Origin: Paracoccaceae bacterium
Lineage (GTDB): Bacteria > Pseudomonadota > Alphaproteobacteria > Rhodobacterales > Rhodobacteraceae
Reading direction: 5' to 3'
NCBI GenBank assembly: GCA_965208685.1
Contig: CBDBPL010000005.1
Location: 14,995-78,994 of the forward strand
Length of the DNA: 64,000 nucleotides
Part shown: one piece after another, positions 8,734 to 49,008 of the stretch
Numbering within the stretch: position 1 is the stretch's first letter
How the letters are laid out: each line of letters begins with the position of its first letter
Position numbers and translations under genes: made by a program
The notes under the pieces: generated by a model
Databases searched by the model: none
What the model saw: the letters and a program-made list of their open reading frames with translations, nothing else
What the model was told of the DNA's origin: nothing

Positions 8734-8878
8734 TGACTCTTGGCAATGGAAGAGCCATGCCATTTGGAAGTCGATTTCCGACCAGGTCCGGACGATGCCG
8801 TCACCCGAGGAACGGGTGCCCGGCATGGCGGTTGCGCCTGCCGGAGACGTTCCCTCCACCTGGACGGCATGCCGGACC

Positions 8879-9382
8879 ATGACAGAGCGACTGCCGCACG
8901 AGAAGGGTTTCCACGTCAGCTGGGACCAGATGCATCGCGACGCCCGTGCGCTTGCCTGGCGGCTGGACGGGCGCGGGCCGCTTGACGGCAGGTGGAAGGC
9001 GGTCGTGGCAATCACGCGTGGCGGCATGGCACCGGCAATGATCGTGGCCCGCGAACTCGACATTCGCATCGTGGATACAATCAGCGTGAAGAGCTACGAT
9101 CACCAGTCGCAGACCGATGCGAAGATCCTGAAATCTCCGGACGCGGGAATGATGGGCGACGGCGCCGGCATCCTCGTCGTGGATGACCTGGTCGATACCG
9201 GCCAGACGCTTGAACTCGTTCGACGACACTTTCCGCAGGCTCACTTCGCCACGGTCTACGCCAAGCCGATGGGCGAACAGCAGGTCGACACGTTCATTAC
9301 CGGCGTCAGCCAGGACACCTGGATTTTCTTTCCCTGGGACATGGCGCTTCAGTATGTCGAGCCATACCGGGGCACCGATTGA
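8879..9382 (+). CDS. gpt: xanthine-guanine phosphoribosyltransferase
   Basis: [17 protein letters not shown]...[20 protein letters not shown]... plus PRPP loop [16 protein letters not shown] at 8879 ([11 protein letters not shown]) lies inside ORF 8795..9382. Confidence 0.85.
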
Positions 9383-9392: not shown

Positions 9393-9646
9393 GCTCTCAC
9401 ATGACACTTGATTTATTCCGCAACGAGCGCAACATCGTCGCCCGCCGCCCGAAAACGGCCCAAGTTGCCGTGAAACGTGCATGGCATGAAGCCGAACACG
9501 CAAACGTCCATCAACGCGATGATCCGACTTGGATTTCGTCTTTTCCCGGGGTCGCGAAGCTCATACCCGAATCATCGAAACAAAGCTAGAACAATTTTGC
9601 CCGGTGTCCGAGAAATGTTGCTTATGTTGCTTGATCGTGAGGCAGT
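9393..9646 (+). repeat. R1: copy 1 of a ~250-bp non-coding dispersed repeat
   Basis: ctctcacatgacacttgatttattccgcaacgagcgcaacatcgtcgccc...gagaaatgttgcttatgttgcttgatcgtgaggcagt. Aligns end to end with R3 (7-nt indel plus about 20 mismatches by eye) and more loosely with R2. Confidence 0.85.
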
Positions 9647-10290
9647 TGAACCTGCCATTTCTGGTTCGGCCCGAACGCCCATGCAATCCGGTGCAATCAG
9701 AGGCGGCGATCCCCTGCACTACAAGATCGCGATCGCTCCCTTGCGTTCCGCGAGCGGACCGCGCTGGCTTCAGTCGTGTTCGTTCGCCGAGATCGACCGT
9801 GCCAGAGACTGAAGTCGATCGTGGGTCACTCGGACACGTGAACAACCGGCAATTGCCCGGCCCGATTGAGAGGCGATTGCTCCGGAGAAGCGCAATCGCC
9901 GACCTGGGTTCTCCTCCGCCTTTCCATGCGGCGGCGAGGTTTTCCTGCACTCGCTCCTCTCAAGCGCGAACAGGAACTCATCCACAAGATTCAGCCTTGC
10001 AGGGCTCTCAAAGCCTGAAGGACGCGGAGAATGGGCCGCAACGCACGCCAAGTCTCGGTTGATTCAAACGCGAAACACGGCAACGAAGCTCCACCGGGCA
10101 ACAAGATCCTTTGGAGCGGCTACAGCGCGCTTTCGATCTCCGCGTGGATCGTCCGCCCGGACGGCGGCCTTGGCGATCAGAGTCGACTTGGCCAACTCTC
10201 CAGGCGGGAAGCCGCTTGTGAAGAACGCGCAGCCGGCACCTTTGCATCATCGTGCCGGCCCCATGTCCTTGGCGCAAGAGTTGCAGCGAC

Positions 10291-10538
10291 ATCTGACTTG
10301 TTCCGCGATGAGCGCAACTTCTTCGCCCGCCGCCGGAAAGCGGCCCAAGTTGCCGTGAATCGTGCAAGGCACGAAGCCGTACACGCAAGCGTCAATCTTT
10401 GCGATGACCCGAGTTGGACTTCGTCTCTTTCACGCGCCGCGAAATGCATGCCCGCACCATCGAAACAGGGCAAGAAGAATGCACGTCTTCGGTCCTTGCC
10501 CGAGAAATGTTGCGCCTGCTGCTTGAGCGTGAGGCAGT
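10291..10538 (+). repeat. R2: diverged copy of the same repeat, same orientation
   Basis: atctgacttgttccgcgatgagcgcaacttcttcgcccgccgcc...gagaaatgttgcgcctgctgcttgagcgtgaggcagt. Roughly three quarters identical to R1 by eye. Ends 50 bp from the SWIM gene stop. Confidence 0.7.
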
Positions 10539-10587
10539 GCTTGACGCTCGATGGCGACAAGGCGCGCAGCGCGGTTTCCCGGATTGC

Positions 10588-11430
10588 CTACAGGGAATTC
10601 CGGTTCTTCTGCACAACGCGGGCGCACACGTCCTCCATGACTCCGATGAAGGACCGGTCCAGGTGCCAGAACGCCGGGAGATCTCCTCCTTTCTTGGCCA
10701 GAACGGCAGGCGTCGGCGGGGATCCGCTCAACGCGTCAACCGATGGAAGCGGCTGTTCACCTCGCCAATAGGACTTGACGTCAATGCCTGCTGCGGGCGT
10801 TTCACTCGGTTGGGTGTAGCGGTGCGCGGGAAGGTTGAGGCACCCTTCCTCTTCGGTCTGCTCGTCGATGAGCGCCTGCCCCAAGGGCGAACTTGCGAGC
10901 TTTTCGCGAAGCATGGAGTACTCGAGACCGCGCAACTCGAAGAGCAGCATCGGGTCGCGATCAAGCAACGAGGCGATCTTGTAGTAGACGCCTGCCACGT
11001 GCTTGCAGGGCGAAGCCCAGTCGGGGCACGAGCACTTGCTGATGAGGTCGTCCCGTGACCTTGGCAGCAGGGACTTGCCGGAATCCGAAAATGCATTCTC
11101 GATCGCCGTCGGCATTTCGTTCATGAGCAATTGGGACAGGCAGGCGGCGTTGCCGGAGATCATCTCCGAGATCCCGTGCCATTCGGCCGAGGTGAACTGT
11201 CGCAACTTCACTGTCACCTTGTATCGAGGCTCCTCGTAGATACCGAAATAATGATTGATGTTGCCACGCAAGGTGGCCCTGGCCACACCCTTGCTGATGG
11301 AGAATTTCAGGAGCCGGCTCGGGCCGGAATAGGCCCGACCCCGCTTGAGTCGACCCTCGTCCATGCTCATTGCCAGGACGCCAAGAAAGATCTCGCCCCA
11401 CCAGGTCCGGGTCATCCTGGCCATGATCAA
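10588..11430 (-). CDS. SWIM zinc-finger protein, partner of the upstream SNF2 helicase
   Basis: SWIM signature CSCPDWASPCKHVAGVYY (CxC..CxH). Its start overlaps the SNF2 stop by 4 nt, suggesting translational coupling. Confidence 0.85.
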   Translation of the reverse strand: MIMARMTRTWWGEIFLGVLAMSMDEGRLKRGRAYSGPSRLLKFSISKGVARATLRGNINHYFGIYEEPRYKVTVKLRQFTSAEWHGISEMISGNAACLSQLLMNEMPTAIENAFSDSGKSLLPRSRDDLISKCSCPDWASPCKHVAGVYYKIASLLDRDPMLLFELRGLEYSMLREKLASSPLGQALIDEQTEEEGCLNLPAHRYTQPSETPAAGIDVKSYWRGEQPLPSVDALSGSPPTPAVLAKKGGDLPAFWHLDRSFIGVMEDVCARVVQKNRNSL

Positions 11431-14400
11431 GCCTCCACAATGCTTTGGCGATTCAGGGAGATCAACTGCCGAAATGCGTCGTTATCCATCTCCGTCAGCC
11501 AGTTCTCGTCGGCGCCGACGATGTTCTCGGCAAGGGCCTTCTTCGCTTCGATCATTTCGTCGATGCGCTCTTCCAGCGTCCCCAGCGTGACCATCTTGTG
11601 TGCGAACACCGTCTTCTGCTGGCCGATCCTGTAGGCGCGGTCCGTGGCTTGGTCCTCGACCGCCGGGTTCCACCAACGGTCGAAGTGGAAGACATGACTT
11701 GCCTGAGTCAGCGTGATTCCGACTCCCCCCGCCCGCAGCGACAGAACAAAGATCCCGGCGGGCGAATCCGGATCCTGGAAGCTCTCGATCATCTTCTCCC
11801 GGCGTCGTCTGGTGGTGCCGCCATGCAGGTAATGCACAGGGCATGAATGTCGTTCCCGGAACAGGGCTTCCAGCCGCTCGCCGATTTCGGTGAACTGAGT
11901 GAACACAAGAAGGCTGGCGGATTCCACCAGGGCTTCCTCGATCATTTCGTTCATGCGGGCCAGCTTGTGCGAACGGCTTTCGTCAAAGGCGCTTTCGTCC
12001 TGGAGAAATTGCGCAGGATGATTGCAGACCTGCTTCAGCTTCATCAGCGTCGACAGGATCAACCCGCGCCGGGCCATCCCCTCGGACTCCGCGATCCTGT
12101 CCTCAACGTCTTCGACCACGGCCTGGTACAGCGATGCCTGCTCTTTGGTAAGGTTGCAGTAGACCTTCTGTTCGACCTTGTCGGGCAGGTCGTCAATGAT
12201 CGACTTGTCGGACTTCAGGCGACGGAGAATGAACGGCTGGACCAGTTGCTGCAGTTGTCGGGCGCGGACCTGGTCGTTCTCCCGCTGGATCGGCACTTCG
12301 TAAGCGCGCCTGAACTGCGCTTCCGTGCCAAGGTAGCCGGGGTTGAGAAACCGGAACAGGGACCACATGTCCATAAGCCTGTTCTCGATCGGCGTCCCCG
12401 TCATGGCGATGCGATGGGTGCCAGCAAGCGAAGAGATCGCCTTGGCCTGCGCAGATTTCGGGTTCTTGATGTTTTGCGCCTCGTCGATGACTACGCGCCG
12501 CCATCGCACGGCATTGAGAGTTTCCTTGTCCGAGCGGGCGAGGTTGAAAGATGTCACGATCAGGTCGAGGCCCGAAACCGACCTGGCGAAGTCTGCGCGG
12601 TCGCGAACCCTGTCCGGGCCATGGTGAATGTGACATTTCAGCTTGGGCGCGAACTTCTCCGCTTCCCTCTTCCAGTTGCTGAGCACGGATGTCGGGGCAA
12701 CCAGAAGCGTGGGCTGGATCCCGGAATCCGGCGCCCTTCCATCATGTTGCCTCTCGTGAAGCAGCAATGCAATCAACTGGACGGTCTTGCCCAGGCCCAT
12801 GTCATCGGCCAGGCACGGGTTCAGGCCGAGCCGTTCCTGCCGCGCCAGCCATGCAAGCCCCGCTTTCTGGTAAGCTCGCAGGTCGCCGCACATCCCGGCA
12901 GGGTTGTCCATGGGTTCAATGCTCTCCAGACTCTGCAGGCCCTTGAGGACTTCGCCCAGGACGTCATCGAAGACAAACTCCTCAGTGTCGGGGTCGGCTT
13001 CAGCCATGTCCTTGATCAACTGGCTGAATTCTACGCCAACGCCCCCTTCCCGGTTCCGCCAGAGTTCAAGCGTCTCGGACATTCGCCGATGGTCGATCTC
13101 CATCCATTCGCCGCGGAACTTCACGAGAGGCGACTTGGCTTCGAGCAGCGTCTTCCACTCGTCCTCGGTCACCGGTTCGCCGTCTATGGAGAGTTCGTAA
13201 TCGTACTGGATCAGGGAATCCAGGTTCAGCAGTCCTGAAGCGGGGCTTGCCTGCTGGGGCTGGCTGCCTGCACCGCTGGCCCTGACACGCAAACGCGCCC
13301 GTCGGCGTCCCTTCGGCGTCCACCAACTCGGCAGGACGATGCGGTAACCTGCGGATTCAAGCACTAGTGCATCGTCCTTCAGGAATTCGTATGCCGTGTC
13401 GAGGTCTATTTCGACCCCGGCCGGCGTCGCGGTTTCCATGCCCTGCCAGAGCAAGGGACAGATTCGTCCGGCCTGTCCAAGACTGACAAGCAGATTGCGT
13501 TCAAACTGCCGACCGAAGCGCTTCTGCCAGTCGCCCTTCTTGCGTTCAGACATCGGCCACCATTCCGAAAGGTCCACCGAAAGAGATGGGTCCTCGTTGC
13601 AGGACACGAAAAACCCGATGCGCCAACGATCGTCTTTGCTGCCTTCGTCCTGGCTCAAGCGAAATCCAAGCGAGAATCCCGTGCGCTGTGCCTGGCCGAG
13701 AATCTTCCTCTGCCACGCAAGCCAGCTGGCGACATCCGCTTCGTCAGGACTCGGGGGATCGATTCCCGCCGAAACCCGGCTTTCCAACGTCTGTGCCAAT
13801 GCTCCTGCGAACCAACTGTCCTTGAGCGGATTCAGGAACGACTTCGTGAAAGGGGTGCCGGAAACCAGCATGTCGACCTGCTGCTCGGAAAACTGCCGCA
13901 GCAGGTCGGTTCGGTCGAGGATCGACACTGGGGCCTTGCCGTTCGTGCGCCCGTTCCTTTCGCTCCCTACGAGCGTGCACACGGCAGGCATCGCGGCGGC
14001 AAACTCGTGCAGGTTGCGCTCATAGAGACTGTCGGCCGGAGCCCATCCGGCCACGTACTTTGGCTGCGTACGGCCCTTCCTGGGCTGGCGGCACTTCATG
14101 ACGGGCAGGAACTGGTGCTGGCGGACCATTGCGCGCAACTGCTGGGCGTACTTGATCCAGAAATTCAGGTCATGACCGATCCGGAATTCGGTTTCGGCAA
14201 AACTCGAAAGGAATTGCAGCTCGCGAAGGAAGGCAAGCGGATTGCCGAGGGCGATCCCGCTGATGTCCCAGTCGTTCCACTCGAACCTTTCGGGCAGGTA
14301 TTCGCCGGACAGCTGGGCCATCTCAAGGCTCGGCAGCGGCTTTCCGTTGGCGCTTGGCATTGTCGCACGGAACGCACCCGGTCCAGGACAGGCGGCTTCC

Positions 14401-14657
14401 ACGGCCGCCCGACCGAGTCTCAGGTCGGATGCAAGGAAACTGTCCAGACGGGTGGCATCGGAGAGATGGGAGGGGTGCTGTCCAGGCGTCGGCTTTCCCT
14501 TGCCGTGCTCCGACGTTTCAACCCAGAAGACGAATTGGCCAGGATTGTCAAACTCGTCTGCTGGCCGCGGAATCCAGGAGCCATGATAGATTTCGATATG
14601 ACGCTTCACTCGTTGCATCCCTTGAGAAGCTGCGACCCGTTCGGTGACGTGAGGCAT
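11427..14657 (-). CDS. SNF2-family DNA-dependent ATPase/helicase with long N-terminal SNF2-associated region
   Basis: Motifs DDMGLGKT (I), DEAQNIKN (II), TGTPIENRL (III) and QATDRAYRIGQ (VI). The ~600-aa N-terminal region resembles the bacterial SNF2-helicase-associated domain. Start is uncertain: ATG 14657, ATG 14618 or TTG 14675. Confidence 0.85.
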   Translation of the reverse strand: MPHVTERVAASQGMQRVKRHIEIYHGSWIPRPADEFDNPGQFVFWVETSEHGKGKPTPGQHPSHLSDATRLDSFLASDLRLGRAAVEAACPGPGAFRATMPSANGKPLPSLEMAQLSGEYLPERFEWNDWDISGIALGNPLAFLRELQFLSSFAETEFRIGHDLNFWIKYAQQLRAMVRQHQFLPVMKCRQPRKGRTQPKYVAGWAPADSLYERNLHEFAAAMPAVCTLVGSERNGRTNGKAPVSILDRTDLLRQFSEQQVDMLVSGTPFTKSFLNPLKDSWFAGALAQTLESRVSAGIDPPSPDEADVASWLAWQRKILGQAQRTGFSLGFRLSQDEGSKDDRWRIGFFVSCNEDPSLSVDLSEWWPMSERKKGDWQKRFGRQFERNLLVSLGQAGRICPLLWQGMETATPAGVEIDLDTAYEFLKDDALVLESAGYRIVLPSWWTPKGRRRARLRVRASGAGSQPQQASPASGLLNLDSLIQYDYELSIDGEPVTEDEWKTLLEAKSPLVKFRGEWMEIDHRRMSETLELWRNREGGVGVEFSQLIKDMAEADPDTEEFVFDDVLGEVLKGLQSLESIEPMDNPAGMCGDLRAYQKAGLAWLARQERLGLNPCLADDMGLGKTVQLIALLLHERQHDGRAPDSGIQPTLLVAPTSVLSNWKREAEKFAPKLKCHIHHGPDRVRDRADFARSVSGLDLIVTSFNLARSDKETLNAVRWRRVVIDEAQNIKNPKSAQAKAISSLAGTHRIAMTGTPIENRLMDMWSLFRFLNPGYLGTEAQFRRAYEVPIQRENDQVRARQLQQLVQPFILRRLKSDKSIIDDLPDKVEQKVYCNLTKEQASLYQAVVEDVEDRIAESEGMARRGLILSTLMKLKQVCNHPAQFLQDESAFDESRSHKLARMNEMIEEALVESASLLVFTQFTEIGERLEALFRERHSCPVHYLHGGTTRRRREKMIESFQDPDSPAGIFVLSLRAGGVGITLTQASHVFHFDRWWNPAVEDQATDRAYRIGQQKTVFAHKMVTLGTLEERIDEMIEAKKALAENIVGADENWLTEMDNDAFRQLISLNRQSIVEA

Positions 14658-14727
14658 GTGCAGGTCAGAATCCAATGATGATGGATTCCCTCTTTCGAGG
14701 GGATGCGCAATACCTTATTTTGGGTGC

Positions 14728-14757
14728 ATCGCAACTTTGGCCACAGAATGTTGCGAT
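14728..14757. promoter_or_regulatory. inverted repeat in the divergent intergenic region; candidate operator
   Basis: atcgcaac-N14-gttgcgat has perfect 8-bp arms. It lies in the relatively AT-rich 190-bp spacer between the SNF2 gene and ORF 14866..15288. Confidence 0.3.
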
Positions 14758-14865
14758 CAGGTCGGATGGTCTCGAAGATTCTTGTCGAACGTGCGGAACC
14801 TGACGGCCTTGTCGGCAGGCATCCGATCATACATTGCTGGATGAGGATGGGCATTGAGGCGCGCG

Positions 14866-15288
14866 ATGGTTGAAGACACCGAACTGAGGGCGGAACTTGC
14901 CAAGCTGGAGGCGCTGTTCCGGAGAGCGGGCAGCCTAGGGGTGAAGTCGGCTGCCGGTGTCGCCATCGAACGGCTTCGGGGACGCTTGACCAAGGCGGGA
15001 GAGCAGCCGGAGCCCGAGGTCGAGCTTCAGCATTCGCTACCGGACATCCGGTGCGTCGACCAGTTCTGCGCCGTGTGTCGCAAGCATGGCGTCCGGCCCT
15101 ACCGTTACAGGCGGCAACGCCGCACCACGGTCATGGTGCGCGTCCGGGAGGAGGAGTTCTATCGCGAGGCATGGCCGGAATACTGCCAGCTTCATGCCGA
15201 ACTGGCCAGCTACTTCAACGACGTGACTGACCACCTGATCTCACGTGTCATGGGGTCGGGAGGCAGCAGTACGCTCGACCTGAAATAG
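14866..15288 (+). CDS. hypothetical protein (140 aa), divergent from the SNF2 gene
   Basis: ATG at 14866 is preceded by gagg (6-nt spacer). Coiled N-terminus, then CVDQFCAVCRKHGVRPYRYRRQRR. No family recognised. Confidence 0.45.
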   Translation: MVEDTELRAELAKLEALFRRAGSLGVKSAAGVAIERLRGRLTKAGEQPEPEVELQHSLPDIRCVDQFCAVCRKHGVRPYRYRRQRRTTVMVRVREEEFYREAWPEYCQLHAELASYFNDVTDHLISRVMGSGGSSTLDLK

Positions 15289-15293
15289 ACGGT

Positions 15294-15716
15294 CTATGCG
15301 CTGTCTGAAGTGCTCTCGCAGCTGCTTTGCGCCAAGCCATGCCCTGGAAGGAGACAAAGGGGAAGAGGTCCAGCGAGGAGAATATGAAGCTTCTCAGGCC
15401 GTCCAGTTAACGAAACGTCCACCTGGCAAAGGTCAACCGGCCAACCGACCCATCTACGGGGCTCTGCCTGGCGCGCGGCAACTGCGTAGAAGGAAGACTT
15501 CATGACTTCCGGCGGCGCGAACCGTAGTCCCTTGGCGCCGATATCGGAATCTCCAAGTTCTCTCCCCGGACGGGCCGAAGCCAAGCCGATGGCTTACGGC
15601 AAGTCGGACTTGCCGCGTCCATTGCCGCCGAGAAAGAGGTTCGCCCTGACGAGATCCAGGCTTGATATCTCACGGAGCTGAACCGCGCTATCCTCATCTG
15701 TGACGGCATGGTGCAT
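15294..15716 (-). pseudogene. relic of a RecF/SMC-like P-loop ATPase N-terminus with an in-frame stop
   Basis: VQLREISSLDLVRANLFLGGNGRGKSDLP-TAA-AIGLASA... shows the Walker A GxNGxGKS followed by the usual AI..A helix, interrupted by TAA at 15594..15596. It stops after about 140 codons. Confidence 0.4.
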
Positions 15717-15836
15717 CCATCGGACGGATCGGAAGCCGATGCAAGGACTCACGTGCCGGCAGGAGCGCCATGGATGCACTCCGCCGACGGCGGACAGGAT
15801 CTGCCGAGACATTGAATGAACATGCGTCCGTGGGAC

Positions 15837-18800
15837 TCACGTTGCCCCAAACAGGTCCGCAAGGTCGTCTTCAGTCAAGGTCAGGGCGCCGCCCCCGGTA
15901 CCTTCGAAGAGCGCGTCGGCCAAAGCCTGCTTTCGCGCCTGCATGGCCTTGATCGCGGTTTCGACAGTATTCTCACTGTAGAGGCGGTAGACGAAGACAG
16001 GCTTGTCCTGCCCGATCCGGTGCGCACGGTCCATCGCCTGCCGTTCAACGGCGGGGTTCCACCACGGATCGTAGAGAATGACCGTGTCGGCCGCCGTCAG
16101 GTTCAGGCCCGTTCCTCCTGCCTTCAGGCTGATGAGGAACAGCTGCGCATCGCCGGACTGGAACCTCTCGATCACGGCCGCGCGATCCCGGGTCTGGCCG
16201 TGCAGCATTGCATAGGGCCATCCGCGGTTCCGAACGTCTGTCTCGATGAGGCGCAGCATTTCAACGAACTGGGAGAAGACAAGGACCTTGCGGTTCTCGC
16301 TCACGAGCTCTTCGAGCAATTCCATAAGGCGGTCGCGCTTGGCGCTTTCACTGACTTTTGCGGCCGCATCCAGCTTGACCAGCTTCGGGTCGCAGCAGAC
16401 CTGCCGGAGCTTCAGAAGCGCGTCGAGCACCGTAATGCGCGATCCCGAGAGACCCTTTTCCGCGATTGCCGCGCGCACTCGGGCGTCCATTGCGCTGCGT
16501 ACGCTCTCATAGAGCAGGGCCTGCTTGCCACCCAGCATCACGGTTTCGTCAATGACGGTCTTGGGGGGCAGGTCCTCCACGACCTCGTCCTTGGTGCGGC
16601 GCAGAAGAAAGGGCCTGACCCGGTCGGTCAAAAGACGCTGCCGCGCGCGGTCCCCCTGCTGCTCGATCGGCCTGCGATATTCCGCACCAAACCCCTTCCG
16701 ATCGCCAAGAAACCCCGGGATGAGCCAGTCGAACAAGGCCCAAAGCTCGGTGAGGTTGTTTTCCAGCGGCGTCCCAGTGAGCGCAATGCGTTGCCGTGCC
16801 GTGATCTGCCGGATGTGCCTGGCAACCGAAGCGGCGGGGTTCTTCACCGCCTGTGCCTCGTCCAGGATCGCCAGTTCGTATTCGCGGGCAAAGAGCGCGT
16901 CATGGTCCCGGTGGATCAACGGGTATGTCGTCAAGACCAGGTCATGCGCCCCGATCTGATCGAACCGCTGGTGCCGCTTCGTTCCATGCAGGCAAAGCAC
17001 CTTCAGGTCGGGCGCGAATCGTGCCGCCTCGTTCTGCCAGTTGCTGACGAGGCTGGTGGGTATCACCAGCAGGCTCGGACGGTCGGCATTCCTTTCGACA
17101 TGACAATGGAGCAGAAGGGACAGGGCCTGCACGGTCTTTCCAAGGCCCATGTCGTCGGCCAGGATGCCTCCAAATCCGCTGTCATTGAGGGCCTTGAGCC
17201 AGCCATAGCCTTGCGCCTGATACGGGCGAAGCTCGGCCTTCAGCGAGGCAGGCTGGTCCTCCTCCGACGCGGTCGCAAGGTTGCACAGCCGTTTGCCGAG
17301 TTCCAGGATCTCGGTCCCGCCGTCCCAAGGCGCGCCACATCCGTCCAGCGCCTCGATCAGGCGCGCCGCGCGGCCGGCGTCGGCCATGTGAAACCTGGTG
17401 AGGCCCTGCGCTTCGAGAAAGGCTTCGATGAATCCGGCCAGTTCGACGCCCTGTACCGGGACCATCGTTCCGTCGGAAAGGTTCAGGTAGAACGCGAAAT
17501 CCGCGAGGAACTCGTCCAGATCAAACCCATCGACAAGGTTTCCGGCGCTGTCGAGCGGCAGCGAAGCAACGACCTGAAGTATCGTGTTTGTCAGGTCCAG
17601 CGCCGTGCCATCCACATCCAGCTTCAATGCCAATGAGAACCAGTCGTTGTCGGACTGCTCGAAGACCGTCTGGAAACTCACGTCTCCGGAATAGAGGCGC
17701 GCGGGCCAGCTCGGATTGATGTCGACTTCCCATCCCAGCTCCCGCAGTCGGGGCAGCCCCTCGGCGTTGAAGTCGAGAACTTCGTGAAGGGAGTATGTGT
17801 CCCCAGGCACGACCGGGAGAAAGATGACGTGCGCTTCGCTCATCGCCTTCGGGAGCTGACCTCCGCTCACGCGCGCATACTCGGGAGACTCGCCGTCGAA
17901 TTCCGCTGCAATGCCCTCCAGGGCGAACAGCAAGTCCCTCTCGGCCGTGCGGTCTCGTCGAATGACGTGCACCCCTTCCTTGTCGGCATACCGAATGTCG
18001 GGTCCCGCAGCGGGAACCATGGGGTCGCTGCATCCCGCGTAACGAATCTCGGCACGAATGCAGGGATAGGTCACGGTTTCATGTCCGGTTCGGGTTCTTG
18101 GGCTCCACCAAGTGTCGTTCACCCTTTGCTTCCGACTGTGCCCGAACAGCTTCAAGGTCATCGTCGGCGCAAGGTCGGCCCTTTCGTGCACCGCGACGGG
18201 CTGGGGACGAGGCACCGCGTCGCCCAGTCGCCGCGCCAGGATGTCCGCCAGGGGCGCGACTGATTCTGCCGGGACCGTCGGAGCGCGTGCGAGCGCCGCC
18301 GCAACGCCGGGCGGAAGTGACGTGCGCGCGAAACCGGTCAGGCCGGACTCTTCATCGACAAAGACCGGGTCTGGAAACGGCAGGGCAGCCAAATGCTGCC
18401 GCTCCCCGTCCCTGGCCTGCAGGCTCTGATTGCCCAGGGCGTCAAGCACCCATTCAAAGCCGACATCTCTGGGTTCCGCCCAAGTCAGGCTCGGACCGTT
18501 GATGTCACGGAATCGCGCGCGACGGGTCGCGATTACCTCCTGCAAGAGCCGCTCCAGCGTTTCCCCGCCCGGCCAGTCTTGGCGGGTCGGGTACGAAACG
18601 GTGGAGAAGTACGCCAATTGCGCCAGGATGGCGGCATCTGACTGCGTGATGCCCGCACCGCCGGCGCCGTAGAGCTGCGGATTGAATTCGCGGACGTTCT
18701 TCCCGATGCTGCCGTCCTTCTTCACGTAGGCCCTGAACGACGCAATCTCGGCCCTTGCATGATCATGACTTCGCCGAAAGACATAGAATATGGCATCGCT

Positions 18801-19238
18801 GGATGTCGTCGGCGACAATGTCGCGGCTGAGGCGCCTTTCCCTTCGTCCAGGCTTGCGAGCCATGCCGTGATTTCGCCGGGCATTTCCTGCCGACCGAAG
18901 CCAGGCAGCGCGGGCGCCAAATCTCTGGTTGCGGTGGCGAGGGCAGGATCAGGACTCCGCTGTGCAAATTCGAGAAGAACCGCAACGACGTGCTTGCAAT
19001 TGTATCCGACGTCGCAGGTGCAGATGCCATCTACCGCAGACAAGCGGCCATTCGAGTCGGCATGCAGTCGAACTCGAACCGGAAAAGGGCTTCCGCCGCT
19101 GCCTTGGACACTGCCGGTCAGGATGTCGCAGTCCAACTGAACGGCTGTTACTCTCCTGGCAGAAAAAAGTGAAACACCACTCTGAAAGTGCGCCGCCTCG
19201 TCAATTGCACGGGAAATGCATTGCTTGGTCATCAACAT
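15837..19238 (-). CDS. fused SWIM zinc-finger / SNF2-family ATPase (about 1,133 aa)
   Basis: N-terminal SWIM CTCDVGYNCKHVVAVLLEF. C-terminal SNF2 motifs DDMGLGKT, DEAQAVKN, TGTPLENNL and QAMDRAHRIGQ. ATG 19238 (MLMTKQ) follows ggag with a 7-nt spacer. Confidence 0.85.
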   Translation of the reverse strand: MLMTKQCISRAIDEAAHFQSGVSLFSARRVTAVQLDCDILTGSVQGSGGSPFPVRVRLHADSNGRLSAVDGICTCDVGYNCKHVVAVLLEFAQRSPDPALATATRDLAPALPGFGRQEMPGEITAWLASLDEGKGASAATLSPTTSSDAIFYVFRRSHDHARAEIASFRAYVKKDGSIGKNVREFNPQLYGAGGAGITQSDAAILAQLAYFSTVSYPTRQDWPGGETLERLLQEVIATRRARFRDINGPSLTWAEPRDVGFEWVLDALGNQSLQARDGERQHLAALPFPDPVFVDEESGLTGFARTSLPPGVAAALARAPTVPAESVAPLADILARRLGDAVPRPQPVAVHERADLAPTMTLKLFGHSRKQRVNDTWWSPRTRTGHETVTYPCIRAEIRYAGCSDPMVPAAGPDIRYADKEGVHVIRRDRTAERDLLFALEGIAAEFDGESPEYARVSGGQLPKAMSEAHVIFLPVVPGDTYSLHEVLDFNAEGLPRLRELGWEVDINPSWPARLYSGDVSFQTVFEQSDNDWFSLALKLDVDGTALDLTNTILQVVASLPLDSAGNLVDGFDLDEFLADFAFYLNLSDGTMVPVQGVELAGFIEAFLEAQGLTRFHMADAGRAARLIEALDGCGAPWDGGTEILELGKRLCNLATASEEDQPASLKAELRPYQAQGYGWLKALNDSGFGGILADDMGLGKTVQALSLLLHCHVERNADRPSLLVIPTSLVSNWQNEAARFAPDLKVLCLHGTKRHQRFDQIGAHDLVLTTYPLIHRDHDALFAREYELAILDEAQAVKNPAASVARHIRQITARQRIALTGTPLENNLTELWALFDWLIPGFLGDRKGFGAEYRRPIEQQGDRARQRLLTDRVRPFLLRRTKDEVVEDLPPKTVIDETVMLGGKQALLYESVRSAMDARVRAAIAEKGLSGSRITVLDALLKLRQVCCDPKLVKLDAAAKVSESAKRDRLMELLEELVSENRKVLVFSQFVEMLRLIETDVRNRGWPYAMLHGQTRDRAAVIERFQSGDAQLFLISLKAGGTGLNLTAADTVILYDPWWNPAVERQAMDRAHRIGQDKPVFVYRLYSENTVETAIKAMQARKQALADALFEGTGGGALTLTEDDLADLFGAT

Positions 19239-19412
19239 GCCAAGGCTCCGCCTATCAACGTGCCGGTGCCGTGACAACCTCCGACGGCGGAGATGACGCC
19301 ACCCGCGCACCAAGGCCCGTCGGTCCGGCACCGCGTTCACACGCGTGCCGGCAACGCGCCTGGGCAGGGCCGGGGATCTGCTGCGTTCACAAAGGCAAAC
19401 GGCTTCCCGGAT

Positions 19413-19657
19413 CTCTCACTGCCACTTGATTTATTCCGCAACGAGCGCAACATCGTCGCCCGAAAACGGCCCAAGTTGCCGTGAAACGTGCATGGCATGA
19501 AGCCGAACACGCAAACGTCCATCAACGCGATGTTCCGACTTGGATTTCGTCCTTTCCCCGCGTCGCGCCGCTCATACCCGAATCATCGAAACAAAGCAAG
19601 AACATTTTTGATCCGCGCCCGAGAAATGTTGCGTTTGTTGCTTGATCGTGAGGCAGT
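19413..19657 (+). repeat. R3: third copy of the ~250-bp repeat, about 175 bp upstream of the fused SNF2 gene start
   Basis: ctctcactgccacttgatttattccgcaacgagcgcaacatcgtcgcccgaaaacggccc...cttgatcgtgaggcagt. Same orientation as R1 and R2. Confidence 0.85.
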
Positions 19658-19827
19658 CCGAAGCGCGACATTGGCCATTCCTGAACGGAGGCGCAGCCCG
19701 AGCGGAGGAAGTGGCCTGGCGATGGGGATCCCCGGCCTTCGGCCACCGACATCCTGCTCCGGAACAGGCTGAAATCCCATCGCGACGAAGAATAGCCGCG
19801 CCCTCCGTACGGTCCGGTGCGGTTTCG

Positions 19828-20045
19828 TCAAGGAGGCCGTGCCATTCGGAACGCCTCGGCCGGGTTCAGGCAGCCGAGCGCGTTCCTCGGGCGCGCGTCC
19901 ATCCGGTCCCGGACCGCCTTCGCCTGCGTGTCGGTCACCGGCCCGAAGAGTGCGTTTCCTTCGGGAAACACTCCTGCGCGAGGCCGGTCACGCGCTCGTT
20001 CGGAACGCTCGCAGGGCGCGATTCGGCAACGAACGACCGACGCGC
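19828..20045 (-). pseudogene. IS30-family transposase C-terminal relic (frameshifted)
   Basis: FVAESRPASVPNERVTGLAQECFPKET, then in another frame FGPVTDTQAKAVRDRMDARPRNALGCLNPAEAFRMA-stop. Compare the IS30 pattern [25 protein letters not shown]...LNxRPRKxLGxxTPAEVF. Confidence 0.5.
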
Positions 20046-20061: not shown

Positions 20062-20823
20062 TCAGGTCCTGCGGGGCCAGTCCGGTGGGGACAACGCGGA
20101 CTGAAACCAGTTCACGAAGCTCACTTGCGAGAAGACCGGAAGTCCCGTGGCGTTTCGGACCGCAGCCGCGTAAGGCGTCATGTTGGTGCATTCGAGCACG
20201 ATTGCACCTGTGTCGGGATGTTCCGCAACTAGGTCTTCAGCGGCGCCCACGTTGTCCGCCTCGGCCATCACCGGATCGAGTTCAGGTGAATTGCCCAGGA
20301 TGGCTTCCGTGAAATGCGCACGGCCCTCGGTCGTGCCGATGGGCGTGCCCTCTGGCACACCTGCGGCAGCCAGGTGCGCCTCGGTCAGGGACGAACGCGA
20401 GACGGTAAGGATGCCCGCTCGGCGGCTTGAAGGCAGGAGCGCGTTGACCGCGCGAAGCTGCATCAACGACGAGGTCAGCACGGGAACGTTGACAGCTGCA
20501 GACAGCTCTTCCTGGAAAATCGAGAGGAACCCGCAATTCGTGGTGATTCCGTCCACGCCGTCCGCCTCAAGATCCTGCGCCGCGATCCTGAAGGCATCCA
20601 GCAGCCCCTTCGCGCCCTGCCGGACCACGCGACCCGGCGACGCATTGCGCACGACCTTGTAGTGCACCGGAAAGCCCCACGTGCCCGCATTGCCCATGTC
20701 GCCCAGGATGCGCGGAAACCGGGCTTCGAGCATGAGGATGCCCACCGAAGCCCCGTAGACCGATTTTCCGCCCTTGATCATGGCCGTTGCCTCTTCCCGG
20801 ACATCGCGATTCGCTGCTGCCAA
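20062..20823 (-). CDS. Asp/Glu/hydantoin-racemase-like family protein
   Basis: GILMLEARFPRILGDMGNAGTWGFPVHYKVV...ITTNCGFLSIFQ...IVLECTNM matches the pattern of this family as I recall it. The start may be the internal ATG at 20781. Confidence 0.65.
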   Translation of the reverse strand: MAAANRDVREEATAMIKGGKSVYGASVGILMLEARFPRILGDMGNAGTWGFPVHYKVVRNASPGRVVRQGAKGLLDAFRIAAQDLEADGVDGITTNCGFLSIFQEELSAAVNVPVLTSSLMQLRAVNALLPSSRRAGILTVSRSSLTEAHLAAAGVPEGTPIGTTEGRAHFTEAILGNSPELDPVMAEADNVGAAEDLVAEHPDTGAIVLECTNMTPYAAAVRNATGLPVFSQVSFVNWFQSALSPPDWPRRT

Positions 20824-36894: not shown

Positions 36895-36973
36895 ATCCTG
36901 TGGTGGGTTATGTATCCTTGTTAGGATAGACCCAATCATGCGATGAGGACATTTGCGATGATCAGTTCCGGAG

Positions 36974-39306
36974 CTATCAACCTGCCACACCTGTATAGGT
37001 GATCCTATTCCCGCCTTTTCTCGCCGATGGCGTCACGTACCTGTATCGCCCAGTTGAGCCTTTCGAGCCCTTGCCAGACTTTTTTCGCGCCCGGGAGCGG
37101 CTGGCGAGGGTTTGGATGGGAGCCGACGAGACGCCCGAGATCGATCACCACCGCGCGAATGTCGGGCACCTGCCCGGCGGGCATCCTCACCACGTTCCGG
37201 TGGCCCTGCGATTCCAGCATCGTGTGAAGCAGGTCGATGTCCTCCTCCGGAAACACCTCGGTCGCGGGGGTTTCCGGGCGCTCCCGCGCGAGGACGGTGA
37301 TGTCGGCGACGTGGACGGCGGTGACCGCGTCGAAGGCGAGGCACTTGCGCAGGTCGTCGGCGCTGTCCAGCCGGCGGTCCTTTATCCGGGTCCCGGTCTT
37401 GAGTGTTCGGAACCAGGTTTCAACTGTCCATCTCAAACGGTACCAGCCCAGCACGGTCGCGGCATGCACGGCGTCGGCCTCCCCCTCCGCAGGGCGCTCG
37501 GTGGTCAGCAGCAGCCAGTGCAGCGGGTCGTCGCCGTCGGCCTCGATCTCGGTGGCCGAGACGGCGAACATGGGCAGCGGGTCCGCGCCGCGGTCCCAGT
37601 GCGGCGGCACGATCTCCACCTCGGCCGTGCGGATCTCGAGGCGGGCCATGCGCTCCTTCCGCGCGCGGGGGCCGCCGGCGGCCGGGATCGTCAGTTCCGA
37701 CACCGCGACGGGCGGCCGGGCCGCGACGTGCTCCCACAGGCACGCCTTCCCGCCGCCGGGCACCGTCACGCGCTGCTGCGCCGAGCGGCTGGCGCGGACC
37801 AGCAGCGCGTCGCCGTCGTCCACGGCGTGGGCGAGCAGGTCCCAGAAGTCGCCCTCGCGGTCGCAGACCGAGACCACCCGCGTGTCCGGGCAGGCCGCCG
37901 CGAGTTCCCGCGCCCGCCCGAGGCCCTCGACCCAGCGCCGGCTGTCCTCCTCGGGATCCTCCCGGAAGGCCGCGTCCATCGCGAACAGGCCGAGCGGCCG
38001 GCCCTCGGACGTCACCGCGAGCCCGGCGTGGGCGAGGATGCCGACGCTGCCCTTGCCGCCGCCGCCGATCCCGTCCAAGCCCTTCGTGGCCTCCAGGCCG
38101 GTGTAGTTCAGGGCCGTCGTATCCTGTATCGCAAGGACCACGGGCTCCGCCCGGCAGCGGTCCGCGGTGGCCTCGAAATGCGGTTCCAGAACGTGCTCCA
38201 TGGATATCCTCGGGTTCGACAGCAGGCGGTACGCGGCCTTCTGCTCCGCCTTCGTCGGAAAGATGACCGGCAGGTCGTCCCCCATGTTCTTCAGCCAGGA
38301 CCGGCCCATGTCAACGATGCGCCGCCGCACCCGCCCGTCGGTGTGGCCCGTGCGACCGTACTCCCGCTCCGCCCAGTCCAGGTCCGCGCCGTCATAAGCG
38401 CCGGCCAGCGCCCCGACCGGGCGGCGTTGCACGCGACAAAGCGCCTTCCGCCAGCCTTCCTCCAGCGCCAGCACCCGCACCGTGCCGGCCTCGTTCCTGC
38501 GTCCTCCGGTCCGGCCGGCGACGGTCCAGCCCGCGCAATGGTAGCAGTAGCCGTCGTGCTCCGGGCCGACATGGGTGTAGGCCGCCACCGGGCGCACCGA
38601 ATAGCGGGCCTCCCAGTCGTCGGCGATCGTGTCCGCGGCCATGCGCAGGATCTCGGACGCGAGGCCGTAAACGCGCACGCCCGGGAGCAGGAGATAGCGA
38701 TGGTTGCAGATCACGCGCCCGATGTTGGCTGCGCGGGCGTCGGCGGACCATCCGATCCACTCGTCGCGCGCCCGGAGCTGCCAGGCCGCCGAACCGAAGC
38801 CGATCCCGCCGAGGACGCCGTGGCGCTCCGAGCGGATCCAGTAGCGCACCTGGCCGCCGGGAGGCCGCGCCCATCCCAGCGGATGATGCGTCTCCATCAT
38901 CGCCTCCCACAAGCGGCGGTCGTCGGCGTCGCCCACCAGGTCGAGCGAGACGGGGCCGAGATCCTCAAGCGCGCAGGCCAGCCTGGTGTCGGGAACGTCA
39001 CCGGCCGGAACGGCGGGCGCGGCGGCCGGATCCGGCATGTCGCGGGCGGGCGGAAGCTCGATCCCGATGCGCTCCGCGAGCGTCGGCAGCGCCTTCGCCG
39101 CCGCCGACAGGCACGGGTGGCCGAGGGCGTTGAGCCAGCCGGTGCGCTCGCACAGTTCGCGGGCCAGCGCATGCCGCGTGTGCTCGCCGGAGCGCAAGGC
39201 AACGGCGAGCCAGTCAAGCGTGCGCGAATCGAAATGGCGAAGGCCGACCTGCATGCCCGCGCCATACAGGAACCCGATCACCTATACAAGTATGGGGTCT
39301 TGAAAG
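36974..39306 (-). mobile_element. IS4/Tn5-like insertion sequence, copy 1 (2,333 bp) with a 9-bp target duplication
   Basis: 31-bp imperfect terminal IRs (ctatcaacctgccacacctgtataggtgatc versus the reverse complement of gatcacctatacaagtatggggtcttgaaag). Perfect 9-bp direct repeat gttccggag at 36965..36973 and 39307..39315. Confidence 0.85.
37005..39254 (-). CDS. IS4-family (Tn5-like) DDE transposase with a ~300-aa N-terminal DUF4338-like extension (749 aa)
   Basis: C-half has AIQDTT (D), VCDREGD (D) and YRLRWTVETWFRTLKTG (Y-R-E-K signature). N-half has HHPLGWARPPGGQVRYW...WIGWSADARAANIGRVICNHRYLLLPGVRVYGLAS...DDWEARY, as I recall for DUF4338. Confidence 0.8.
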   Translation of the reverse strand: MQVGLRHFDSRTLDWLAVALRSGEHTRHALARELCERTGWLNALGHPCLSAAAKALPTLAERIGIELPPARDMPDPAAAPAVPAGDVPDTRLACALEDLGPVSLDLVGDADDRRLWEAMMETHHPLGWARPPGGQVRYWIRSERHGVLGGIGFGSAAWQLRARDEWIGWSADARAANIGRVICNHRYLLLPGVRVYGLASEILRMAADTIADDWEARYSVRPVAAYTHVGPEHDGYCYHCAGWTVAGRTGGRRNEAGTVRVLALEEGWRKALCRVQRRPVGALAGAYDGADLDWAEREYGRTGHTDGRVRRRIVDMGRSWLKNMGDDLPVIFPTKAEQKAAYRLLSNPRISMEHVLEPHFEATADRCRAEPVVLAIQDTTALNYTGLEATKGLDGIGGGGKGSVGILAHAGLAVTSEGRPLGLFAMDAAFREDPEEDSRRWVEGLGRARELAAACPDTRVVSVCDREGDFWDLLAHAVDDGDALLVRASRSAQQRVTVPGGGKACLWEHVAARPPVAVSELTIPAAGGPRARKERMARLEIRTAEVEIVPPHWDRGADPLPMFAVSATEIEADGDDPLHWLLLTTERPAEGEADAVHAATVLGWYRLRWTVETWFRTLKTGTRIKDRRLDSADDLRKCLAFDAVTAVHVADITVLARERPETPATEVFPEEDIDLLHTMLESQGHRNVVRMPAGQVPDIRAVVIDLGRLVGSHPNPRQPLPGAKKVWQGLERLNWAIQVRDAIGEKRRE

Positions 39307-39858: not shown

Positions 39859-40109
39859 ATCATGCGATGACGCAAAAAAACGTTCCTAACTGGGTTTGCG
39901 CCTTTTCTGCCTTAGTCACGAATGACAATTCCACACCGACGATCGTGCCGATTGTAGCTTTCTGTGGTACTCACCAAGTGAATTCCGGTCTCGGAGTCAC
40001 GCCGTGAGTCACTTTCGTATTCAATGTCGGTTAACGCACAGGCCGGTGCGTGAAATTCACCCGGTTTTTTGCCATGTTCCCAAAAGGCCGGAATTAAATG
40101 GTTCTTGTT

Positions 40110-42442: not shown

Positions 42443-42504
42443 GCCAACGGCACGGTCATCCCGGACAGTGTGTTCCCGCTATGGATGCCAACGGGCACTA
42501 GGCA

Positions 42505-45372: not shown

Positions 45373-45486
45373 TGTGGAGTCGCGTTGAAAATTGACCCAC
45401 TTCGGGGGGTGATTCGCGTCCAAATTTGACCCACCCCAAATCAGGTGGAAACGCCTGCCTCGCAACGAATCAGCGAGGCAGTGGAG

Positions 45487-47717: not shown

Positions 47718-47753
47718 ACGCCCGCCGCGGGATCGCGGGCGGGGCGGCACCCG

Positions 47754-48921: not shown

Positions 48922-49008
48922 GATTGCTTGCTGAGCCTGACAAATGGAAGGTTCCTCTGTTGATGGGCGTGGCCGCTTCCAGGCCATGTCACTTTTGAGG
49001 AGGACAAC

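What the first reader, a model, noticed from the sequence alone, without database searches (positions are those of the whole stretch)
10291..19657. Two adjacent SNF2-helicase/SWIM-zinc-finger modules, one split and one fused, bracketed by direct copies of a 250-bp repeat
Seen: a 280-aa SWIM protein (CSCPDWASPCKH) is translationally coupled (4-nt overlap) to a ~1,080-aa SNF2 ATPase. About 1.2 kb away on the same strand sits a second, clearly diverged ~1,133-aa SNF2 ATPase with its own N-terminal SWIM (CTCDVGYNCKH). Between them lie a divergent 140-aa ORF and a decayed P-loop ATPase. The block is bounded by repeat copies R2 and R3 in direct orientation, and R3 abuts an IS30-type relic. Known: the SWIM/bacterial SNF2 association (fused or neighbouring, e.g. 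B. subtilis ywqA/ywqB) was noted when SWIM was defined, but I know of no assigned function. Inference: this is an accessory, probably horizontally acquired, DNA-translocase system present in both gene architectures side by side. A defence, anti-plasmid or repair role is speculation.
Basis: partly seen in the sequence, partly recalled or inferred. Interest (0 to 1): 0.65.

Follow-up and report, generated by a model that had tools for sequence, protein, structure and literature searches.

The report
Two SWIM–Snf2 DNA translocase modules
Two intact DNA-motor gene modules of a long-known but still uncharacterised bacterial type (a Snf2 ATPase working with a SWIM zinc finger) sit side by side in a variable spot of a marine alphaproteobacterial chromosome; the repeats around them are small mobile elements that landed later, so the locus is a good specimen of a known puzzle, not a new kind of system.

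Summary
The block contains:
- a 278-aa SWIM protein gene placed 2 nt after a ~1,060-1,082-aa Snf2 ATPase (SNF2a, with DUF3670);
- a 1,133-aa Snf2 ATPase with an N-terminal SWIM (SNF2b);
- a 140-aa divergent ORF;
- a P-loop ATPase relic;
- three direct copies of a ~270-bp repeat.

Two details fail: there is no 4-nt overlap, and no IS30 relic could be found.

The two closest relatives (Boseongicola-like Paracoccaceae) carry the same block between gpt and the racemase-like gene without any R copy. R is therefore a MITE-like element inserted three times, not the border of a mobile unit.

The two modules are independent. A third relative has SNF2b alone at this site, with SNF2a-SWIM inside its ribosomal-protein operon. 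A fourth has SNF2a-SWIM in yet another place. Eighty species-level relatives lack both genes next to gpt.

All genes are under purifying selection, and the SNF2b segment was exchanged laterally very recently.

Both motors are closest to Sulfolobus SsoRad54. No nuclease or other effector domain was detected.

The site also holds relics of a candidate defence pair (PDC-M31). However, 80 distant SNF2a-SWIM loci sit among ordinary genes.

Best reading: accessory, nuclease-free, SWIM-associated dsDNA translocases of unknown role. They are new members of a known kind.

The parts
8795..9382 (+). gpt (xanthine-guanine phosphoribosyltransferase-like). It is the last gene of the conserved DUF192-csp-pdxH-fabI-gpt backbone and marks the left edge of the variable site.
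   Evidence: Pfam Pribosyltran 5e-23. The backbone is conserved in the 80 related loci.
9401..9678 (+). R1, a copy of a ~270-bp MITE-like non-coding repeat inserted just after gpt.
   Evidence: nhmmer 2.5e-97. Absent from L084 and L088 at this position. Inverted-repeat core GCAACRARCGCAACAT on both arms.
9773..10045 (-). Relic of the C-terminal part (residues 135-226) of a PDC-M31B-like gene.
   Evidence: tblastn 53% identity, 1e-21, to the intact 226-aa protein of L084. That protein hits PADLOC PDC-M31B at 1.6e-5.
10286..10565 (+). R2, the older and more diverged copy of the repeat, 23 bp downstream of the SWIM gene stop.
   Evidence: nhmmer 4e-88. About 75% identical to R1 and R3, with 7-nt indels. 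Absent in L084 and L088; its right half is present in L081.
10588..11424 (-). SWIM-domain partner protein, 278 aa, placed 2 nt after the SNF2a stop (possible translational coupling).
   Evidence: Pfam SWIM 7e-5. A family of 278-aa proteins is conserved over the full length. dN/dS 0.13-0.23. AF2 pLDDT 78, with no PDB fold match.
11427..14675 (-). SNF2a: Snf2 ATPase with an unknown N-terminal ~420 aa, DUF3670 and the motor. The start codon is uncertain within 14609-14675.
   Evidence: Pfam. Best PDB match 1z63 SsoRad54, 5e-132. NCBIfam helic_SCO1167 670 bits, below its cut-off. dN/dS 0.16-0.19.
14854..15288 (+). orf144 (probably 140 aa from ATG 14866), divergent from SNF2a; function unknown.
   Evidence: GC3 0.78. 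88% identical in L088 and frameshifted in L084; partly retained in L081, whose match to the window ends at 15105. dN/dS 0.28. No Pfam, PADLOC or PHROG hit.
15489..15662 (-). Relic of a PDC-M31A-like AAA_15/AAA_21 P-loop ATPase (residues 17-74, with an in-frame stop).
   Evidence: tblastn 72% identity, 3e-18. The intact homologue in L084 hits PADLOC PDC-M31A at 5.8e-87.
15837..19238 (-). SNF2b: single-chain SWIM, ~400-aa region of unknown function, DUF3670-like region and Snf2 motor; 1,133 aa.
   Evidence: Pfam. hhalign to the SNF2a family over 482-1129. N-terminal region: 1,083 representatives at E<=1e-3. dN/dS 0.13-0.26.
15050..19749 (.). Tract 95-100% identical to relative L084, a recent lateral exchange of the SNF2b segment (R3 excluded).
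   Evidence: Sliding identity. dS 0.053, against 0.34-0.38 for the flanks. 19654-19749 is 98% identical.
19419..19688 (+). R3, a recent insertion of the repeat ~180 bp upstream of the SNF2b start.
   Evidence: nhmmer 2.5e-93. The empty site in L084 is contiguous.
20062..20823 (-). Asp/Glu racemase-like gene, the right edge of the variable site.
   Evidence: Pfam Asp_Glu_race 7e-10. The race-DAO-DctPQM backbone is shared with L084, L087 and L088.

Best explanation
The block is a variable insertion and recombination hot spot between gpt and a racemase-like gene in a Boseongicola-like Paracoccaceae chromosome. It holds two independent, intact SWIM-associated Snf2 modules that are under purifying selection.

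Module 1 is a two-gene operon. SNF2a consists of an unknown N-terminal region, DUF3670 and an SsoRad54-like motor. It is followed 2 nt later by a 278-aa SWIM protein, which probably forms a complex with it (inferred). A divergent 140-aa ORF is linked to this operon.

Module 2 is a single chain: SWIM, a region of unknown function, a DUF3670-like domain and the motor.

The three R copies are later insertions of a ~270-bp MITE-like element and do not delimit a mobile unit.

Mechanism (inferred from the family): each module is an ATP-driven double-stranded-DNA translocase with no detectable nuclease domain. The SWIM zinc module would act as the sensor or regulator that couples a DNA or protein cue to the motor. 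The output would be displacement or remodelling of protein-DNA or recombination intermediates, following Rad54 or RapA logic, rather than DNA cleavage.

Biological role: most likely an accessory genome-maintenance or recombination-control function that moves laterally. An anti-mobile-element role is the main rival.
For: Shown:
- Domain content.
- Both motors are best matched by Sulfolobus SsoRad54, PDB 1z63: 445 bits for SNF2a against 247 for the next match, and 308 bits for SNF2b.
- SNF2a directly upstream of SWIM, with about an 8-nt gap, is conserved in most of 80 metagenomic loci at 43-60% identity. No third gene is conserved; the largest neighbour cluster covers 4 of 80 loci.
- No nuclease or effector domain was found by Pfam, NCBIfam, PADLOC or PHROGs, or by Foldseek on AF2 models of the SWIM protein and the SNF2a N-terminus.
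- dN/dS is 0.13-0.26.
- Synteny: the same block is present without R in L084 and L088; SNF2b is alone at this site in L087; SNF2a-SWIM lies elsewhere in L081 and L091.
- The neighbours of distant homologues are ordinary metabolic, transport and regulatory genes.
- No relative of the SWIM protein occurs in 2.9 M viral contigs.
- R: it has 7-nt indels, so it is non-coding; a ~16-nt inverted-repeat core occurs only in R copies; a further copy lies in another context in L087; empty sites exist.

From the literature: SsoRad54 is a dsDNA translocase that remodels DNA and stimulates RadA strand exchange (PMC2677860). SWIM-associated SWI2/SNF2 ATPases are recognised as a prokaryotic group (PMC5512222).
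Against: - No experiment exists on any bacterial member, so translocase activity, complex formation with SWIM and the cellular role are all inferred.
- In this clade the modules sit beside defence-type material: intact PDC-M31A/B in L084 and L088 with relics in the window, a type I methyltransferase relic in L091, type I-F CRISPR-Cas next to a 64%-identical SNF2b homologue in L090, and many IS elements. They also move between sites like defence cargo.
- The best PADLOC models are 'DpdE' (640 bits for SNF2b) and ZorD.
- The ~400-aa N-terminal regions have no fold match, so a novel effector cannot be excluded.
Confidence: 0.5

Rival explanations
1. One or both modules are anti-phage or anti-plasmid defence systems. 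The SWIM module senses foreign DNA or a foreign protein, and the Snf2 motor then blocks replication, strips proteins, or recruits a host nuclease. The hot spot would be a small defence island.
For: - The site carries a PADLOC candidate defence pair: PDC-M31A 5.8e-87 and PDC-M31B 1.6e-5 in L084, also present in L088, with relics in the window.
- An SNF2b homologue lies directly after type I-F cas genes in an IS-rich region.
- SNF2a-SWIM in L091 travels with a type I methyltransferase relic and an IS fragment, and is inserted inside the ribosomal-protein operon.
- Distribution is patchy, and the SNF2b tract was exchanged recently.
- Snf2 ATPases are components of Zorya, DISARM, Dpd and Hma (PADLOC hits; PMC11232893).
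Against: - The SWIM protein has no PADLOC hit.
- All curated defence models fall below their cut-offs: ZorD 282 and 276 bits against 1500, DpdE 39 and 55 against 500, DrmD below 100 against 610-950.
- No partner genes of those systems occur in the block.
- No nuclease was found.
- The 148 neighbours of 80 distant SNF2a-SWIM loci show no defence enrichment.
- Other SNF2b homologues sit among metabolic genes.
Confidence: 0.3
2. R2 and R3 are the ends of a composite mobile element that brought the whole two-module block in as one unit.
For: R2 and R3 are direct copies that flank exactly the two modules. The genome is rich in IS elements.
Against: - L084 and L088 have the same block at the same site with no R copy, and the sequence is contiguous across each R position.
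- R2 is about 75% identical to R3, and part of it is shared with L081, so it is much older than R3.
- R3 lies inside a tract 95-100% identical to L084, which lacks it.
- The two modules occur separately in other genomes.
Confidence: 0.03
3. The genes are decaying passengers of a degrading island and have no current function.
For: Their neighbours are relics (M31A, M31B). orf144 is frameshifted in L084. The window is dense in IS elements and MITE-like repeats.
Against: The full-length ORFs have all Snf2 motifs and SWIM ligands intact. dN/dS is 0.13-0.26 over dS up to 2.
Confidence: 0.04

Closest known systems
SsoRad54 / SSO1653-like Snf2 subfamily (Sulfolobus solfataricus, PDB 1Z63/1Z6A)
   Same: It is the best solved relative of both motors (445 and 308 bits). 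[quoted passage not shown] It is a dsDNA translocase without a nuclease (PMC2677860).
   Different: It is archaeal. Only its catalytic core has been solved. The bacterial N-terminal regions, DUF3670 and the separate 278-aa SWIM partner have no solved or characterised counterpart.
Actinobacterial SCO1167/SCO6262-type (HelZ-like) and cyanobacterial sll1366-type Snf2 helicases
   Same: SNF2a aligns over residues 212-1074 to NF058637 (670 bits) and over 29-630 to the sll1366 N-terminal model (219 bits). It has the same DUF3670-plus-motor layout.
   Different: Both scores are below the curated cut-offs of 1200 and 550, so SNF2a is a sister lineage and not an equivalog. None of these proteins has an assigned function. 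That Rv2101/Rv2102 are a SWIM-paired example is my recollection and was not tested.
Fused SWIM-Snf2 proteins of bacteria
   Same: SNF2b has an N-terminal SWIM followed by an Snf2 motor. It belongs to a large family of 1,100-1,170-aa proteins (1,083 representatives at E<=1e-3).
   Different: SNF2_assoc is detected in only 2 of 35 family members and not in SNF2b itself. The relation to B. subtilis YwqA was not tested.
RapA/HepA (RNA-polymerase recycling Snf2 ATPase)
   Same: A bacterial Snf2 motor regulated by its own N-terminal domain. This is a plausible functional analogy.
   Different: NF003426 scores 31.6 and 51.7 bits against a 576-bit cut-off. RapA has no SWIM.
Defence-system Snf2 proteins: ZorD, DrmD, DpdE, HmaA
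   Same: Motor-level similarity: PADLOC DpdE and ZorD models score 300-640 bits.
   Different: All curated models are below their cut-offs. The block has no ZorABC, Drm, Dpd or HmaBC partners and no Mrr or PD-(D/E)xK nuclease domain.
Eukaryotic SWIM proteins of the Shu complex (Shu2/SWS1), which act with Rad51 paralogues
   Same: They have a CxC...CxH SWIM zinc module and work in the same pathway as a Rad54-type motor (general knowledge). This is the basis of the recombination idea.
   Different: There is no detectable homology beyond the SWIM motif, and nothing was tested here.

Membership tests
Snf2 family ATPase (SSO1653/SsoRad54-like) | Snf2-type two-lobe motor with helicase motifs I-VI (DxxGLGKT, DEAQ, GTPxEN, QxxDRxHRIGQ). 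| tested here: met
   Pfam SNF2-rel_dom 1e-72 and 4e-66, Helicase_C 8e-19 and 2e-25. The motifs are visible in the alignment. The best PDB hit for both is 1z63.
Snf2 family ATPase (SSO1653/SsoRad54-like) | dsDNA-stimulated ATPase and translocation without strand separation. | not testable with these tools
   This is biochemistry, known only for SsoRad54 (PMC2677860).
SWIM-associated bacterial Snf2 (split type) | DUF3670 immediately N-terminal to the motor. | tested here: met
   PF12419 3e-37 in SNF2a, residues 417-553.
SWIM-associated bacterial Snf2 (split type) | A SWIM zinc-finger gene adjacent on the same strand, with the CxCxnCxH ligands intact. | tested here: met
   PF04434 7e-5. C131, C133, C140 and H142 are invariant in 38 homologues. 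Adjacency is conserved in most of 80 loci.
NCBIfam NF058637 SCO1167/SCO6262 family helicase (equivalog) | Score at or above the curated cut-off of 1200 bits. | tested here: not met
   670.5 bits (SNF2a) and 511.6 bits (SNF2b).
Fused SWIM-Snf2 (SNF2_assoc / YwqA type) | N-terminal SWIM in the same chain as the motor. | tested here: met
   PF04434 4.6e-4 at residues 73-89 of SNF2b. SWIM is detected in 20 of 35 family members.
Fused SWIM-Snf2 (SNF2_assoc / YwqA type) | Pfam SNF2_assoc (PF08455) domain. | tested here: not met
   No hit in SNF2b even at E<=1. Detected in 2 of 35 family members.
RapA | NF003426 at or above 576 bits. | tested here: not met
   31.6 and 51.7 bits.
Zorya (ZorD) | ZorD equivalog score at or above 1500 bits, plus zorA/zorB/zorC neighbours. 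| tested here: not met
   282 and 276 bits. The block contains only the genes listed under parts.
Dpd (DpdE) | NF041062 at or above 500 bits, plus the dpdA-C/dpdD-K cluster. | tested here: not met
   39 and 55 bits. PADLOC 'DpdE' PDLC02842 scores 640 bits but covers only the pre-motor and motor part. No dpd genes occur in the block.
DISARM (DrmD) | DrmD equivalog score, plus drmA/B/C/M neighbours. | tested here: not met
   All scores are 94 bits or less against cut-offs of 610-950.
MITE-like non-autonomous element (for R) | Short, non-coding, multi-copy, with empty sites in relatives. | tested here: met
   Three copies in the window and one in L087. 7-nt indels. Empty sites in L084 and L088.
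MITE-like non-autonomous element (for R) | Terminal inverted repeats, target-site duplication, and a parent IS with the same ends. | tested here: inconclusive
   A sub-terminal ~16-nt inverted repeat is present. The target-site duplication is ambiguous, at most GCCA/GGCA at R3. No IS in the window shares the repeat. No match in plasmid records or Rfam.

The most novel reading that the evidence does not exclude
SWIM-Snf2 modules, both the two-gene and the single-chain form, are a widespread, nuclease-free class of anti-mobile-element (or counter-defence) systems. They hop between chromosomal hot spots, and carrying both forms side by side gives complementary specificities.
Probability: 0.2. Interest if true: 0.7.

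Novelty: new member of a known kind. Interest (0 to 1): 0.3.

Why it matters
The pairing of SWIM zinc fingers with bacterial Snf2 ATPases was noted when SWIM was defined. Seven literature searches here still found no assigned function.

This locus and its relatives give three things:
- clean natural 'knock-in and knock-out' comparisons: the same site with both modules, with one, or with neither;
- evidence that each module is self-contained;
- evidence that each module is under selection and laterally exchanged.

That makes this clade a reasonable place to test defence against genome maintenance. The locus itself does not change what is known.

Tried and rejected
- Plasmid origin: megablast of the block against PLSDB gave only trivial hits.
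- Exact-protein look-up of the window's SWIM protein: not on record.
- R as a structured RNA: RNAalifold gives a long-range helix that is simply the inverted repeat, with 3 sequences and little covariation. Rfam found nothing.
- R as coding sequence: rejected because of the 7-nt indels.
- R or the R3-flanking DNA in plasmid records: no match.
- IS30 relic: no Pfam hit.
- Structure searches: AF2 models of the SWIM protein (pLDDT 78) and the SNF2a N-terminus (pLDDT 75) have no Foldseek PDB match at E<=0.001. The sequence search of the SWIM protein against PDB was empty.
- A conserved third gene next to SNF2a-SWIM: none. The ORF downstream of the L089/L090 SNF2b homologues is unrelated to orf144.
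- Phage origin: no SWIM-protein relative in IMG/VR. One PHROG (29996, a 1,189-position profile) shares the first 175 residues.
- 'Druantia fragment' in L087: probably an IS relic, because the same DruA domain is fused to a Tn5-type DNA-binding domain in the window's 3.1-kb repeats.
- Literature searches for a function of bacterial SWIM-Snf2, DUF3670 or HelZ returned nothing specific.
Full report
**Observation**

All main features are present at the stated coordinates.
- A 278-aa SWIM protein lies at 10588-11424(-), with Pfam SWIM 7e-5 and the motif CSCPDWASPCKH.
- It follows SNF2a at 11427-14675(-), which carries DUF3670 (3e-37), SNF2-rel_dom (1e-72) and Helicase_C.
- The junction reads GGAGGCTTGATCATGG. 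The SNF2a stop TGA is followed by 2 nt and then ATG, and a Shine-Dalgarno sequence lies 7 nt upstream of that ATG. Coupling is therefore plausible, but there is no 4-nt overlap.
- The ATG start is confirmed by a family of 278-aa homologues that align end to end.
- SNF2b lies 1,161 bp further on the same strand, at 15837-19238. It is 1,133 aa with an N-terminal SWIM (CTCDVGYNCKH) and an Snf2 motor.
- Between the two Snf2 genes are a 140/144-aa divergent ORF and a P-loop relic. The relic has GGNGRGKS with an in-frame stop and is 72% identical to residues 17-74 of an intact ATPase in a relative.
- The repeat is real and has three direct copies: R1 9401-9678, R2 10286-10565 and R3 19419-19688. nhmmer E-values are 1e-88 to 1e-97.
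- The 'IS30 relic' beside R3 could not be substantiated.

**Organism and backbone**

- Upstream genes are a class II ribonucleotide reductase, tRNA-Pro, DUF192, a cold-shock protein, pdxH, fabI and gpt.
- gpt relatives place the window in Rhodobacterales/Paracoccaceae, with a best identity of 86%.
- All 80 species-representative loci show pdxH-fabI-gpt wherever the contig reaches them (most also csp and DUF192). None has an SNF2, SWIM or racemase gene within 10 kb downstream.
- Nothing from window 9.4-64 kb occurs downstream of gpt in those loci. Most of them instead share three other conserved genes there.
- The closest genomes came from exact-protein look-ups of SWIM and SNF2b homologues. 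L084 is a Boseongicola sp. MAG; L087 and L088 are metagenome-assembled chromosomes. They share the DctPQM-DAO-racemase ... gpt backbone with the window.

**What the repeats are**

- L084 and L088 carry racemase-SNF2b-orf140-SNF2a-SWIM-...-gpt in the same order. They have no R copy, and their sequence is contiguous exactly where R1, R2 and R3 sit in the window.
- R has 7-nt indels between copies, so it does not code for protein.
- It has a sub-terminal ~16-nt inverted repeat, GCAACRARCGCAACAT, found only in R copies. The pattern gives 5 hits against 0.13 expected.
- A fourth copy lies in an unrelated position in L087.
- It has no Rfam or plasmid match.
- R2 is old: about 75% identical to the others, with its right half shared with L081. 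R3 is very recent.
- R is therefore a MITE-like element that inserted three times in this lineage. It is not the border of a mobile block.
- Its target duplication and parent IS remain unresolved.

**The two modules are independent and mobile**

- L087 has SNF2b alone at the gpt/racemase site.
- The same 4.86-Mb contig carries SNF2a-SWIM elsewhere, inside the ribosomal-protein operon between rplP and rpmC. It travels there with an IS fragment and a type I methyltransferase relic.
- L081 has SNF2a-SWIM (90% identical) in a third context.
- SNF2b homologues at 54-64% identity are solo genes. One lies after type I-F cas genes in IS-rich DNA, and one lies among metabolic genes.
- Window against L084 is 77-89% identical across SNF2a-SWIM, and the flanks are 86-89%. 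Identity is 95-100% from about 15050 to 19749.
- SNF2b dS is 0.053, against 0.34-0.38 for gpt, the racemase gene, SNF2a and SWIM. The SNF2b segment was therefore exchanged laterally very recently.
- All four genes are under purifying selection, with dN/dS 0.13-0.28.

**History of the site**

- L084 and L088 have, between SWIM and gpt, an intact AAA_15/AAA_21 ATPase plus a 226-267-aa protein. These match the PADLOC candidate defence pair PDC-M31A (5.8e-87) and PDC-M31B (1.6e-5).
- L084 and L088 also keep a collapsed second SNF2b copy there.
- The window keeps only the M31B C-terminal relic (9773-10045) and, after SNF2b, the M31A N-terminal relic.
- The simplest reading (inference) is that orf144-SNF2a-SWIM replaced the middle of an M31A/B pair that followed SNF2b, and that later deletions followed.

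**How the two modules relate**

- The motors are 40% identical.
- Profile comparison extends the homology through the DUF3670 region: SNF2a 423-1073 aligns with SNF2b 482-1129.
- The SWIM protein and SNF2b share only the extended SWIM module: residues 22-152 against 14-93, probability 92.8%.
- The ~400-aa N-terminal or middle regions are unrelated and match nothing in Pfam. The SNF2a N-terminus also has no PDB fold match.
- The fused family is large: 1,083 representatives at 50% clustering with E<=1e-3. It rarely shows SNF2_assoc (2 of 35 members).
- The split family is also large: 2,707 hits with E<=1e-3. It has a strictly conserved SNF2a-then-SWIM order and no third partner.

**Function**

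- Both motors are closest to Sulfolobus SsoRad54. SsoRad54 is a dsDNA translocase that remodels DNA and stimulates RadA strand exchange (PMC2677860).
- Curated models for RapA, ZorD, DpdE and DrmD are all far below their cut-offs.
- The SWIM protein has no PADLOC hit, and no nuclease domain was found anywhere.
- The 148 neighbours of 80 distant SNF2a-SWIM loci are ordinary metabolic, transport and regulatory genes, with five transposases and no defence signal.
- No relative of the SWIM protein occurs in IMG/VR.
- Against this, within this clade the modules sit among defence-type relics and IS elements and move like island cargo.
- I therefore favour nuclease-free, SWIM-gated dsDNA translocases with an accessory genome-maintenance or recombination-control role (about 0.5). 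An anti-mobile-element role is the main rival (about 0.3). No bacterial member has been tested experimentally in anything I could find.

**Verdict**

The modules are new members of known, uncharacterised families. Interest is modest.

Noticed in passing
window 36965-42500: Two tandem ~3.1-kb copies (91-93% identical) of an element with alternating GC content (0.53 and 0.71). Each encodes a 749-758-aa protein with a Pfam DruA domain fused to a Tn5-type transposase DNA-binding domain, with GC3 of 0.9. It looks like an IS4/Tn5-like transposase whose N-terminus carries the 'Druantia DruA' domain.
   Followed up: partly
window 44344-62799: A dense IS field: IS21 istA/istB (45445-47717), two 99%-identical IS66 copies (53831-55558 and 56961-58688), two Transposase_29 genes (44344-45465 and 61492-62799), and 90-95-nt inverted repeats at 48827/61403 and 50770/60227.
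   Followed up: partly
L091 7098-15733 (4.86-Mb ENA contig ctg125755_91x_l): In a close relative, an ~8.9-kb insertion splits the ribosomal-protein operon between rplP (L16) and rpmC (L29). It carries SNF2a-SWIM, an IS fragment, a 2OG-Fe(II) oxygenase, a type I methyltransferase relic and a 371-aa protein of unknown function.
   Followed up: partly
window 15050-19749 vs L084 1902-6400: This tract is 95-100% identical to the Boseongicola MAG while the flanks are 77-89%. SNF2b dS is 0.053 against about 0.36. This indicates a recent homologous-recombination import of the SNF2b segment. R3 was inserted afterwards.
   Followed up: yes
window 9382/9401 (gpt 3' end): Synteny with 80 other Rhodobacterales species breaks immediately after gpt. 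They share three conserved genes there that are absent from the whole window. This clade therefore has a rearranged backbone (gpt next to racemase-DAO-DctPQM).
   Followed up: partly
window 19750-19930: A unique 181-bp segment is absent from L084. It is flanked by GGCCACCGA and GGTCACCGG, so it may be a deletion in L084 between short direct repeats. No other copy was found anywhere.
   Followed up: partly
L084 12028-14060; L088 19819-21974: An intact AAA_15/AAA_21 ATPase plus a small protein match the PADLOC candidate system PDC-M31A/B, between SWIM and gpt. The same site in L087 instead holds AAA_30 and DruA-domain fragments.
   Followed up: partly
PHROG 29996 vs window 10588-11424: A phage protein family with a 1,189-position profile matches residues 2-175 of the split-type SWIM protein at its own N-terminus (9.7e-27). 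A fused version of the split-type SWIM therefore exists in phages or prophages.
   Followed up: no
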